Source: the human T2T-CHM13v2.0 reference genome, Homo sapiens. From it: 64,000 nt of DNA. The DNA is taken from assembly GCF_009914755.1 (NCBI RefSeq), contig NC_060934.1. One strand, 5' to 3'. The position numbers and the translations under genes are program-made. Below the pieces are notes generated by a model. The model ran no database searches, had not been told where the DNA came from, and saw only the letters and a list, made by a program, of their open reading frames with translations. Each line of letters opens with the position of its first letter. Position 1 is the first letter of the stretch. Positions 25,333 to 26,589 of this stretch are shown here, in pieces.

Positions 25333-25577
25333 CCAGCCCCAGGACTCAAACGCTGGCTTTAATTCCAACTCACACCCCGTGCCCCTAATCAGAGAGGATC
25401 AGGGGAGATGGAGGACCCAAGGAACCCTGGCACCTGAAGGGTGGGAATCTGAGGCCAAGACTGATTGTGGGAAATTGTGGGAATCAGGAAAGGAGGAAGT
25501 GAGGCAGAATGGGGGGACGGCGGGGGTGGGGGGATGGCGGGGAGCTGGGCTAGGAAGGATTAAAAATCAGAAGCTCA

Positions 25578-25828
25578 GAGGCGAGTAGATCATCTGACGT
25601 CAGGAGTTCGAGACCAGTCTGGCCAACATGGCAAAGCCCCGTCTCTAAATAAAATACAAAAAAATAGCCGGGCGTGGTGGCGCGCGCCTGTAATCCTAGC
25701 TACTAGGGTGTGCTGAGGCAGGAGAATTGCTTGAACCCGGGAGGCGGAGGTTGCAGTGAGCCGAGATGGTGCCACTGCACTCCTGCCTGGGCGACAGAGC
25801 AAGCCTTGTCTCAATAAATAAATAAATA
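25578..25828 (+). mobile_element. 5'-truncated AluS with (TAAA)n tail
   Basis: GATCATCTGACGTCAGGAGTTCGAGACC ... GTCTCAATAAATAAATAAATA. Confidence 0.9.
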
Positions 25829-26232
25829 GTTAGAACCTTAGGAAGGATCCAGAGGGGAACTGTCCTTAGGAAGGTGCATGCTGGGGATGAAGGAATTGGT
25901 TTTAAGACTCAGGAAGTGAGGGCAAGGGAGAGACGAGTGTTGGGGGTGCAGTGGGGTGCTAATGCAGCAGCCAAGCAGAAGACTGGAGGAAAACAGAGCC
26001 CTTCTCCTCCAACTCCAGCTGCTCCTCTGAGTCCCAGGCCACCTGCTCCTGTGTCTGCCAACCTACTGACATGTCTCCCAGCCCTGCTGGAATGCTGTTC
26101 CTCCTGATCTCTGCCCTGCCCCAGACCTTTCACTAACCCCACCACCCCCACTGTCCAGGTCCTACCACCCCACTGCCCCGACCATAGCCTGCCCCTATCC
26201 CAGATGCCTCTCCTTCCAGCCTCTTGCCCTAG

Positions 26233-26320
26233 GTGACACAAAGGGGACCTGGACATGCAGGTGAAGAGGGTGTTCTTCTGGGTCCTCCTGCTCAAGTATC
26301 CCGCTCATGCAGTTATGAGT
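26233..26320 (+). other. diverged paralogue of the signal-peptide exon (MQVKRVFFWVLLLKYPAHAVMS|gtgagt)
   Basis: CCCTAG acceptor (26230-26232), 22 nt leader ending GGAC, ATG 26255, 22 open codons, GTGAGT donor at 26321: same architecture as 9502-9589(-); upstream flank 25540-26030 aligns by eye to ~10190-9910(-). Confidence 0.7.
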
Positions 26321-26589
26321 GTGAGTAAATGTTGGATATGACACAGATTCTATTTCTCAAGCTGTTTCACACTGTGGTTTACCTAACAGTGTTTTTGTGG
26401 AATCATCTATGGGGATTTGGTCCTCCCTGCAGACCTCAGTGCAGATTTCTTGAGCAGCCTACAGGGGCTCTGGCCCCACCTGTCCACACCAAGTTCTGGG
26501 TCCTGCATGCCCTGCTTGGCCCAAATACAGCAAGGTTGACAGGATGGAAAGCTGAAAATGGTGACTTATAATATCGAAAAGTAAGGATT

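What the first reader, a model, noticed from the sequence alone, without database searches (positions are those of the whole stretch)
25540..26350. Cryptic, deeply diverged second copy of the signal-peptide exon, inverted, with both splice sites and the reading frame preserved
Seen: 26233-26320(+) has the same geometry as 9589-9502(-): AG acceptor, exactly 22 nt to GGAC-ATG, 22 open codons, GTGAGT donor. The peptides align (MQVKRVFFWVLLLKYPAHAVMS vs MRVQWLLFWLLLLGFPSHQSTH). Upstream flanks also align, e.g. CCAGAGGGGAACTGTCCTTAGGAAGGTGCAT vs CCAGAGAGGACCTGTCTTTGGGATGGCGCAT and GAAAACAGAGCCCT..CTCCAACT vs GAAACCAGAGCCCT..CTCCAACT. The exon is too short for the ORF track. Inference: this is an ancient duplicated promoter-plus-leader-exon module. 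Keeping ATG, length and both splice sites despite heavy divergence hints at past or present function, perhaps an unrecognised family of secreted or membrane-protein leaders related to NPIP.
Basis: partly seen in the sequence, partly recalled or inferred. Interest (0 to 1): 0.75.

Follow-up and report, generated by a model that had tools for sequence, protein, structure and literature searches.

The report
Old relic of NPIP's signal-peptide exon
The second, inverted "leader exon" is real, but it is most likely a decaying relic of the already described first coding exon (signal peptide) of the NPIP gene family, left by an old inverted duplication, rather than a new family of secreted proteins.

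Summary
Both 26233-26320(+) and 9589-9502(-) have an AG acceptor, 22 nt, GGAC-ATG, 22 open codons and a GTGAGT donor. They are homologous: a colinear BLAST chain with best E 1e-13.

Copy A is the chr10 paralogue of the known NPIP "MRVR/MRLR" start exon of the LCR16a core duplicon. It matches 27 loci on chr16 and chr18. Its peptide is 19/22 identical to the N-terminus of a macaque NPIP-like protein. A 2025 preprint reports that the MRLR form encodes a SignalP-predicted signal peptide.

Copy B is a much older inverted paralogue of the same 5' module. It has only two full relatives, at chr16 28.65 and 29.03 Mb (90% identity), each head-to-head with an LCR16a copy as on chr10.

Keeping all signals without an indel is unlikely under plain decay (simulated P 0.0003-0.011), which suggests B once worked. 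Nothing supports present function:
- The TATA box of the A type is absent.
- The upstream exon has no donor.
- There are no NPIP exons 2-4 on chr10.
- Substitutions between the chr10 and chr16 B copies look neutral.
- 0 of 80 fetched NPIP proteins start like B.

It is not a dispersed transposon family. Verdict: an unannotated fossil member of a known kind, of modest interest.

The parts
26233..26320 (+). Copy B pseudo-exon: 22 nt of leader sequence plus a 22-codon ORF (26255-26320, MQVKRVFFWVLLLKYPAHAVMS). AG at 26231-26232, GTGAGT at 26321-26326.
   Evidence: homology to copy A; 90% copies at chr16:28646287-28646840 and 29029407-29029960
25454..26336 (+). Whole stretch of copy B with detectable homology to copy A (10248-9486). 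Includes the counterpart (25454-25576) of lncRNA exon 10151-10247, which has no GT donor in the B type.
25575..25830 (+). Alu inserted into the B module on chr10 only. The chr16 B copies carry a different Alu about 40-60 nt further on.
27897..30422 (+). Remnant of the intron after the B leader. It is homologous (67-77%) to the sequence that follows the leader exon and its Alu at chr11:3.39 Mb and chr16:20.55 Mb.
9502..9589 (-). Copy A leader exon, an annotated exon of lncRNA LOC107984257. ORF 9567-9502 reads MRVQWLLFWLLLLGFPSHQSTH. It is the paralogue of the NPIP MRVR/MRLR start exon.
9149..9425 (-). 5'-truncated Alu about 77 nt after the copy A donor. It sits at the same site in chr11:3.39, chr16:20.55 and LCR16a, and is absent from copy B.
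9087..11363 (-). Block of copy A colinear with the 5' end of LCR16a (80% to chr16:28636527-28638795). Homology to every paralogue stops near 9087, about 50 nt before the masked repeat block 7614-9033.
   Evidence: hub repeat list
9995..10001 (-). TATAAAG shared by A-type copies (exact in chr10 A, chr16:20.55 and LCR16a 28.64; TCTAAAG and GATAAAG in two others). It has no counterpart in either B copy.
10294..10362 (-). Homologue of the canonical African-ape NPIPA 'MFCC' start. It reads MFCCLVYELLRGGCGASHSACV then a stop, 795 nt upstream of the leader ATG.
   Evidence: 'MFCC' and '~700 bp upstream'
11415..25572 (.). Spacer between A and B. It is colinear in blocks with chr16:28639478-28645934 (79-85%) and includes PAWRP1 (24776-25347). 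Repeats specific to chr10 fill the gaps.

Best explanation
Copy B is a fossil of the first coding exon of an NPIP-type gene.

Proposed history:
1. An ancestral gene had upstream sequence followed by a 22-codon exon. That exon supplies the ATG and a signal-peptide-like N-terminus and splices in phase 0 to NPIP exon 2.
2. Its 5' end was duplicated head-to-head before Alu elements spread.
3. The A arm became the NPIP/LCR16a lineage. An Alu entered its intron, and early primate segmental duplications then scattered A-type copies to chr10 (this window), chr11:3.39 Mb, chr16:20.55 Mb and the LCR16a loci.
4. The A-B pair as a whole exists on both chr10 and chr16.
5. On chr10 both arms are now stumps. 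A is cut about 480 nt after its ATG and survives only as an exon of a predicted lncRNA. B keeps about 4 kb of intron but no further exon.

B probably coded for some time after the inverted duplication. That would explain why the ATG, frame, length and splice signals survive. It has drifted neutrally since at least the chr10/chr16 split.

Shown here: homology, family membership, the copy census, colinearity, the shared Alu, and the absence of downstream exons. Inferred: the order of events, past coding use, and present inactivity.
For: Copy A belongs to LCR16a:
- 9300-10500(-) matches 27 loci (26 on chr16, 1 on chr18) over at least 1006 of 1201 nt at 74-79%. This equals the 27 NPIP genes the preprint counts in T2T-CHM13.
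- In 21 fetched relatives, the ATG is kept in 20 and GTGAGT in 20.

The exon is a real NPIP start:
- Predicted NPIP proteins start with it and continue in frame into exon 2.
- Copy A is 19/22 identical to a macaque N-terminus.
- 26 of 80 fetched NPIP proteins have leader-type starts.
- In the chr16:14.75 Mb locus the leader lies between the MFCC start and exon 2. This fits the '~700 bp upstream' novel start of PMC7419210 section 10.

The A-B pair is shared:
- Window 9087-27672 is colinear with chr16:28636527-28649952 (extended).
- At chr16:14.74 Mb the colinearity stops before the B exon.

B is the outgroup:
- Tree support is 100/100. K2P is 0.67-0.85 for A/B, 0.118 for B10/B16 and 0.26-0.31 for A10/LCR16a.
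- One 5'-truncated Alu sits at the same site in all 4 A-type lineages and not in B.

Past constraint on B:
- There is no gap in about 92 exon columns, against 20 gap openings in 540 aligned flank nt.
- Simulated retention of AG, ATG, GT, open frame and no indel is 0.0003-0.011.
- 0 of 7 changes in the hydrophobic core fall on second codon positions (P 0.033, post hoc).

No present constraint on B:
- B10 vs B16 ORF is 55/66 identical, against 64/64 in the next intron stretch and 451/510 upstream.
- There are 3 synonymous and 8 non-synonymous differences, spread 4/4/3 over the codon positions.
- No TATA box and no donor on the upstream exon.
- tblastn finds no NPIP exon 2, 3 or 4 at E<1 from 40 kb before the window to its end.
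- 0 of 80 proteins start like B.
Against: - No expression, TSS or cross-species data could be consulted, so present use of the B exon is not excluded.
- Both splice sites and the ATG context of B are intact and look strong by eye.
- B still has a textbook n-h-c layout: two positive charges, VFFWVLLL, then AHA.
- The retention test is post hoc. Its parameters come from a poorly alignable flank.
- Overall, A/B differences fall 10/8/7 on codon positions 1/2/3 and pN/pS is about 0.8. The ORF itself therefore shows no clear coding constraint even for the past.
- Which chromosome held the original pair is not resolved. chr10 has the more complete B and chr16 the complete A.
- No RepeatMasker or Dfam annotation was available. 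An old repeat origin for part of the module is not excluded.
Confidence: 0.8

Rival explanations
1. Copy B is still in use as an unannotated, perhaps testis-restricted, alternative first exon. It might feed ACSM6 9 kb downstream on the same strand, or unannotated transcripts from the chr16 copies.
For: - AG, ATG, open frame and GTGAGT are intact in all 3 full B copies.
- The exon ends in phase 0. ACSM6 exon 2 starts at 35594 with 21 nt free of stops before its ATG at 35615, so splicing would stay in frame (read by eye).
- B sits on the same strand as ACSM6.
- The n-h-c signal-peptide layout is kept.
Against: - No RefSeq transcript uses it (hub table).
- Substitutions between the chr10 and chr16 B copies look neutral or faster than neutral.
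- The TATA box of the A type is missing.
- The B exon was lost from the chr16:14.74 Mb copy.
- 0 of 80 NPIP-family proteins start like B.
- The in-frame fit to ACSM6 has roughly a one in four chance (my estimate, not computed).
- ACSM enzymes are mitochondrial matrix enzymes (general knowledge), so a signal peptide would be odd.
Confidence: 0.08
2. The A/B split is not ancient. B is a primate-age copy that diverged very fast, as NPIP exons are known to do.
For: - NPIP is among the fastest evolving primate gene families (PMC7419210, section 10 read).
- The module is GC-rich and CT-rich and aligns poorly, which inflates the distances.
- The B ORF changed more than its flanks between chr10 and chr16: 11/66 against 0/64 in the adjacent intron, Fisher P 0.0006.
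Against: - B lacks the Alu that all 4 A-type lineages share at one site, so it split before that insertion.
- Divergence is as high in non-coding flank (57% identity, many indels) as in the ORF.
- The two B copies differ by only K 0.118, so the B lineage has not been fast since the chr10/chr16 split.
- Against the rest of the module, the ORF excess is not significant (P 0.14).
Confidence: 0.1
3. Both modules are copies of one transposable-element family, and the ATG and splice signals are simply its consensus.
For: The 2017 preprint 10.1101/116087 speaks of MIR and L2 repeats in the NPIP 5'UTR region (passage). I had no repeat library to check the module itself.
Against: - Whole-genome searches find copy B at 2 further places, plus 3 short pieces.
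- Copy A is found only at the 27 LCR16a loci and 2 old paralogues carrying the leader exon (chr11:3.39 and chr16:20.55 Mb). Two further chr10 loci match only its upstream 326 nt.
- A degenerate 24-nt pattern of the ORF is exact at 6 loci only. It has 6 one-mismatch hits, against 2 for the reversed-pattern control.
- Every copy lies inside a larger colinear block of unique sequence.
Confidence: 0.02

Closest known systems
NPIP 'MRVR'/'MRLR' start exon of the LCR16a core duplicon (Cantsilieris 2020, PMC7419210; Dishuck et al., bioRxiv 10.1101/2025.02.04.636496)
   Same: Copy A is a direct paralogue:
- same AG, 22 nt, GGACATG, 22 codons (25 in the copies that carry a 9-nt insertion) and GTGAGT;
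- 19/22 residues shared with a macaque NPIP-like N-terminus;
- same position about 0.8 kb after the MFCC start.
Copy B shares the geometry and the n-h-c layout.
   Different: - The chr10 copies have no NPIP exons 2-4 behind them.
- They are not counted among the 27 NPIP genes.
- They are not mentioned in the three NPIP papers I searched for 'chr10', 'chromosome 10' or '10q'.
- Copy B is only 41/66 identical to A in the ORF. Its peptide is not significantly similar on its own (E 48).
Old partial NPIP/LCR16a paralogues: chr11:3.39 Mb, chr16:20.55 Mb, and chr18 NPIPB1P
   Same: They are decayed copies of the same unit. chr11 keeps the leader ORF (MRLRWLLFWFLVLGFPSHQSSH) and an exon 2 with a stop. 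chr16:20.55 has ATA in place of ATG and stops in exons 2-4. Their intron after the leader is the only sequence that matches the B downstream stretch 27897-30422.
   Different: They are A type: they carry the shared Alu and are 82-85% identical to copy A in the ORF. B is the outgroup to all of them.
Relic exons of unprocessed (duplicated) pseudogenes in general
   Same: A partial gene copy that keeps recognisable exon signals for a long time and now changes neutrally.
   Different: Here the relic sits head-to-head with its partner, and the pair was itself copied between chromosomes. The partner founded one of the most active core duplicons of ape genomes.

Membership tests
NPIP / LCR16a core duplicon | DNA homology to the LCR16a unit | tested here: met
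   Copy A: 27 loci at 74-79% over at least 1006 nt. Its upstream 10100-14400 matches the LCR16a copies at 82-87%. Copy B: homologous only through the 5' module at 54-62%. It is linked to LCR16a on chr16 by position.
NPIP / LCR16a core duplicon | NPIP protein domain (Pfam PF06409, exons 2 onward) | tested here: not met
   tblastn with chr16 exon 2, 3 and 4 ORFs finds nothing at E<1 from window -40000 to 64000. PF06409 starts at residue 26 of NPIPA2 X9, after the leader. The leaders alone hit no Pfam family.
NPIP / LCR16a core duplicon | Start exon that gives an MRVR/MRLR-type N-terminus spliced in phase 0 to exon 2 | tested here: met
   Met for copy A at sequence level: 19/22 to macaque and a phase 0 end. 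For copy B the result is inconclusive: 8/18 identities, E 48. No exon 2 exists on chr10 for either copy.
Secretory signal peptide | Positively charged n-region, hydrophobic h-region of 7-15 residues, and a c-region with small residues at -3 and -1 | tested here: inconclusive
   Simple counts only. A: charge +1, LLFWLLLL, mean Kyte-Doolittle 3.09. B: charge +2, VFFWVLLL, 3.06, followed by AHA. No SignalP was on hand. The SignalP-6 call in print is for the MRLR form of NPIPB6-10, B14 and B15.
Segmental duplication as usually catalogued (at least 90% identity over at least 1 kb; criterion recalled) | Identity and length thresholds | tested here: not met
   chr10 vs chr16 blocks are 77-88% identical. 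Only 551 nt around the B exon reach 90%. This would explain why standard duplication maps miss the locus.
Interspersed transposable element | Many dispersed copies independent of flanking sequence | tested here: not met
   All copies lie in larger colinear blocks. No repeat library was available for very old families.

The most novel reading that the evidence does not exclude
The signal-peptide start of NPIP may not be a human-specific innovation of about 2.6 million years. It may be the reuse of an exon whose signal-peptide character predates the primate Alu burst. Two paralogues that split before that time, A and B, both keep it. The B arm may still fire as an unannotated first exon, for instance splicing in frame into ACSM6 exon 2 on chr10, or running divergently from NPIPB copies at chr16 28.65 and 29.03 Mb.
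Probability: 0.07. Interest if true: 0.6.

Novelty: new member of a known kind. Interest (0 to 1): 0.33.

Why it matters
- It identifies lncRNA LOC107984257's exon 9502-9589 as an NPIP start exon, and the stretch between CYP2C8 and ACSM6 as an old, partial NPIP/LCR16a paralogue.
- It adds outgroups for the 5' end of one of the fastest evolving ape gene families: chr10 A, chr11:3.39, chr16:20.55 and the B type.
- It suggests that the exon now described as a new human signal peptide carried that character long before the LCR16a expansions.
- For genome annotation, copy B itself is an ordinary relic.

Tried and rejected
- NPIP exon 2 downstream of B. By eye, ORFs at 28251-28600 and 32970-33218 looked faintly like exon 2, but tblastn gave nothing at E<1, so I dropped the idea.
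- A link between the module and ACSM genes through the NPIPB 'MVKL' start. The preprint derives that start from exon 12 of ACSM1, a separate event. I did not follow the ACSM6/ACSM-cluster paralogy further.
- A/B homology beyond the module. A sensitive search of 9000-14400(-) against 22300-31000(+) found only the module and an Alu-Alu match.
- PIPPI microprotein (PMC12596725, passages read). It lies in the last NPIP intron and is unrelated to the leader.
- Searches that could not run. The 28-aa B ORF was too short for the protein search. A DNA alignment and a 41-place pattern were not accepted for the genome search, so I used a 24-place pattern instead.
- Errors of mine. One search timed out and was redone. 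One search used a wrong frame for B and an unverified chr16 range, and was redone for the two window peptides. One search used wrong coordinates for the MFCC start and was corrected. The first simulation tested the wrong two bases for the AG and is superseded.
- Literature. 'NPIP' with 'ACSM6' gave 1 unrelated paper. 'LOC107984257' gave 1 GWAS paper, listing only. 'NPIP' with '10q23' gave 10 papers with 8 listed, none on this locus judging by title and abstract. I opened no supplements, and the figures of the NPIP papers (gene models, start sequences) are not held. A chr10 copy or a B-type start could be shown there.

Full report
**Observation.** Both stretches have the stated geometry.
- Copy B: AG 26231-26232, 22 nt, ATG 26255, 22 codons to 26320, GTGAGT 26321-26326.
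- Copy A, the annotated lncRNA exon 9502-9589 on the minus strand: AG 9591-9590, 22 nt, ATG 9567, 22 codons to 9502, GTGAGT 9501-9496.
- The peptides are MQVKRVFFWVLLLKYPAHAVMS and MRVQWLLFWLLLLGFPSHQSTH.
- The quoted upstream matches are in the alignment.

A blastn tuned for low identity gives a colinear chain of six plus-strand segments, best E 4e-15. In a 5.4 x 8.7 kb search the exon block still has E 1.3e-13, and the opposite-strand control gives 0 hits. Homology is detectable over 10248-9486(-) against 25454-26336(+). Identity is 271/476 upstream (220 gap columns), 15/26 in the 5' part of the exon, 41/66 in the ORF with no gap, and 29/64 after the donor.

**What copy A is.** The window's own assembly can be searched. 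Window 9300-10500(-) matches 27 loci over at least 1006 of its 1201 nt at 74-79% identity, 26 on chr16 and one on chr18. It also matches chr11:3.39 Mb (78%) and chr16:20.55 Mb (75%). Its first 326 nt match two chr10 loci at 91%. The number and places fit the 27 NPIP genes that Dishuck et al. count in T2T-CHM13 (bioRxiv 10.1101/2025.02.04.636496, passages read).

I fetched 21 relatives: 17 LCR16a loci, chr11, chr16:20.55 and two B-type loci. The exon keeps its ATG in 20 and GTGAGT in 20. The exception is chr16:20.55 Mb, with ATA and GTAAGT. Most LCR16a copies carry a 9-nt insertion and read MRVRWLLFWLLFWLLLGFISHQSTC. Five have a 9-nt deletion and read MRLRFWLLIWLLLGFISHQPTP. Three NPIPA loci have the exon tandemly duplicated.

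In the chr16:14.75 Mb locus the exon lies about 3.5 kb before the ORF that holds NPIP exon 2 (VINTLADH...). On chr10 the homologue of the canonical 'MFCC' start reads MFCCLVYELLRGGCGASHSACV then a stop, 795 nt upstream of the leader ATG. This fits Cantsilieris et al. (PMC7419210, section 10 read). They say the African-ape NPIPA type acquired a novel promoter and start codon about 700 bp upstream of the older one.

The protein database holds predicted isoforms that begin with the leader and run in frame into exon 2. Examples are human NPIPA2 X9 and a macaque NPIP-like protein starting MRVRWLLFWLLLLGFLSHQSTY. Copy A shares 19/22 residues with the latter. Of 80 fetched proteins of at least 60 aa, 26 start this way: MRVR 13, MRVQ 7, MRLR 3, and MRVL, MQVP and MQVW one each.

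The preprint states three things. 'MRVR' was reported as perhaps the ancestral start. Eleven human NPIPA isoforms use it. The 'MRLR' start of NPIPB6-10, B14 and B15 encodes a 19-26-residue signal peptide by SignalP 6. So copy A is a chr10 paralogue of a described exon. Pfam's NPIP model starts only at exon 2.

**What copy B is.** Window 25830-26420 matches only chr16:28646287-28646840 and 29029407-29029960 (90% over 551 nt), plus three 58-nt pieces. Both chr16 copies read MQGKRVLFWFLLLRYPSLAIMS, with AG, ATG and GTGAGT intact.

The surroundings are shared. Window 9087-27672 is colinear in blocks with chr16:28636527-28649952 at 79-88%, including PAWRP1. The same holds in mirror image at chr16:14.74-14.75 Mb, where homology ends at about window 25889, before the B exon. 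The head-to-head A-B pair therefore predates the chr10/chr16 split.

Downstream of B, 27897-30422 is homologous (67-77%) to the sequence that follows the leader exon and its Alu at chr11:3.39 and chr16:20.55 Mb. B is therefore a copy of the gene's 5' end including intron, not an isolated motif.

A maximum-likelihood tree puts the two B copies against all A-type copies with 100/100 support. K2P is 0.67-0.85 for A/B, 0.118 for B10/B16 and 0.26-0.31 for A10/LCR16a. All four A-type lineages share one 5'-truncated Alu at the same site, about 77 nt after the donor, with the same flank beyond it. B has none there. Hence the A-type copies spread within primates, and B split off earlier.

**Not a transposon.** The copy census is small. 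A 24-place degenerate pattern of the ORF is exact at only six loci: chr10 A and B, chr11, chr16:20.55 and the two chr16 B copies. It has six one-mismatch hits, against two for the reversed control. Every copy lies in a larger colinear block. I had no repeat library, so a very old repeat origin for part of the module stays open.

**Function.**
- *For past function of B.* The exon has no indel, while the flanks have 20 gap openings in 540 aligned nt. Simulated neutral decay keeps AG, ATG, GT, an open frame and no indel in 0.03-1.1% of runs, depending on the rates used. In the hydrophobic core, none of 7 changes falls on a second codon position (P 0.033, chosen post hoc). B also keeps two positive charges, VFFWVLLL and AHA.
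- *Against any clear coding constraint.* A/B differences fall 10/8/7 on codon positions 1/2/3, and pN/pS is about 0.8.
- *Against present function.* Between the chr10 and chr16 B copies the ORF is the least conserved part: 55/66, against 24/26, 451/510 and 64/64. There are 3 synonymous and 8 non-synonymous differences, spread 4/4/3 over codon positions. The TATAAAG of the A type (10001-9995) has no counterpart in B. The B counterpart of lncRNA exon 10151-10247 has no GT donor. tblastn with NPIP exon 2, 3 and 4 ORFs finds nothing at E<1 from 40 kb before the window to its end, whereas chr11 and chr16:20.55 give clear, stop-riddled hits. No fetched protein starts like B (0 of 80). The chr16:14.74 Mb copy lost the exon.
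- *Copy A.* It is a stump too. Homology to every paralogue ends near 9087, just before the masked repeat block 7614-9033.

**Open points.**
- Identity between chr10 and chr16 varies along the block (77-90%) and is highest around the B exon. I have no explanation beyond composition, alignment quality or gene conversion.
- Which chromosome held the original pair is unresolved.
- The leader of B would splice in frame into ACSM6 exon 2. That has roughly a one in four chance (my estimate) and no support.

**Prior literature.** The three NPIP papers contain no 'chr10', 'chromosome 10' or '10q', and 'MQGK' is absent from the preprint. Searches for NPIP with ACSM6 or 10q23, and for LOC107984257, gave nothing on this locus. 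Figures are not held and I opened no supplements, so I cannot say these copies were never drawn.

**Verdict.** Copy B is an unannotated, diverged fossil of a known exon. It is useful as an outgroup for NPIP 5' evolution but otherwise ordinary.

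Noticed in passing
window 10175-14363; G000 chr10:80389481-80395810 and chr10:81102714-81109083: Two further partial copies of the LCR16a 5'-upstream region lie on chr10 at 80.39 and 81.11 Mb, in opposite orientations. They are 85% identical over window 10175-11928 (91% over the last 326 nt) and 73-74% over 12481-14363. 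Both end at window 10175 and so lack the leader exon.
   Followed up: partly
G000 chr11:3.389-3.392 Mb (L024, L038, L046) and chr16:20.540-20.557 Mb (L023, L037, L045): Two old NPIP pseudogenes outside the counted family. chr11 keeps an open leader (MRLRWLLFWFLVLGFPSHQSSH) and an exon 2 with a stop and a frame break. chr16:20.55 has ATA for ATG, GTAAGT for the donor, stops in exons 3-4, and an exon-2 piece with stops in opposite orientation about 11 kb away. The two are 83% identical over 2.7 kb.
   Followed up: partly
window 24162-25572 (PAWRP1 24776-25347): The PAWR processed pseudogene and its flanks are shared with chr16:28644457-28645934 (79%) and chr16:14740186-14741693 (77%). The retro-insertion is therefore older than the chr10/chr16 duplication. 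The RefSeq 'silencer' elements lie in this GC-rich stretch (GC 0.72-0.77).
   Followed up: no
window 26255-26320 vs chr16 B copies: Between the two B lineages the 66-nt ORF has 11 differences while the next 64 intron nt have none (Fisher P 0.0006). Against the whole module, the excess is not significant (P 0.14).
   Followed up: partly
G000 chr16:14749985-14750236 and the 16.39 and 18.34 Mb copies: NPIPA-type loci carry a tandem duplication of the leader exon together with its donor. Predicted isoforms (for example NPIPA5 X1) read through both units as one long hydrophobic N-terminus.
   Followed up: no
window 10294-10362 (-): The chr10 counterpart of the canonical NPIPA 'MFCC' first coding exon is recognisable. 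It ends in a stop after 22 codons, at the point where NPIPA1-type copies have their donor.
   Followed up: yes
window 35594-35617 (+): ACSM6 exon 2 begins with 21 stop-free nt in frame with its ATG. Any upstream exon ending in phase 0, such as copy B, would extend the ORF. No evidence that this happens.
   Followed up: no
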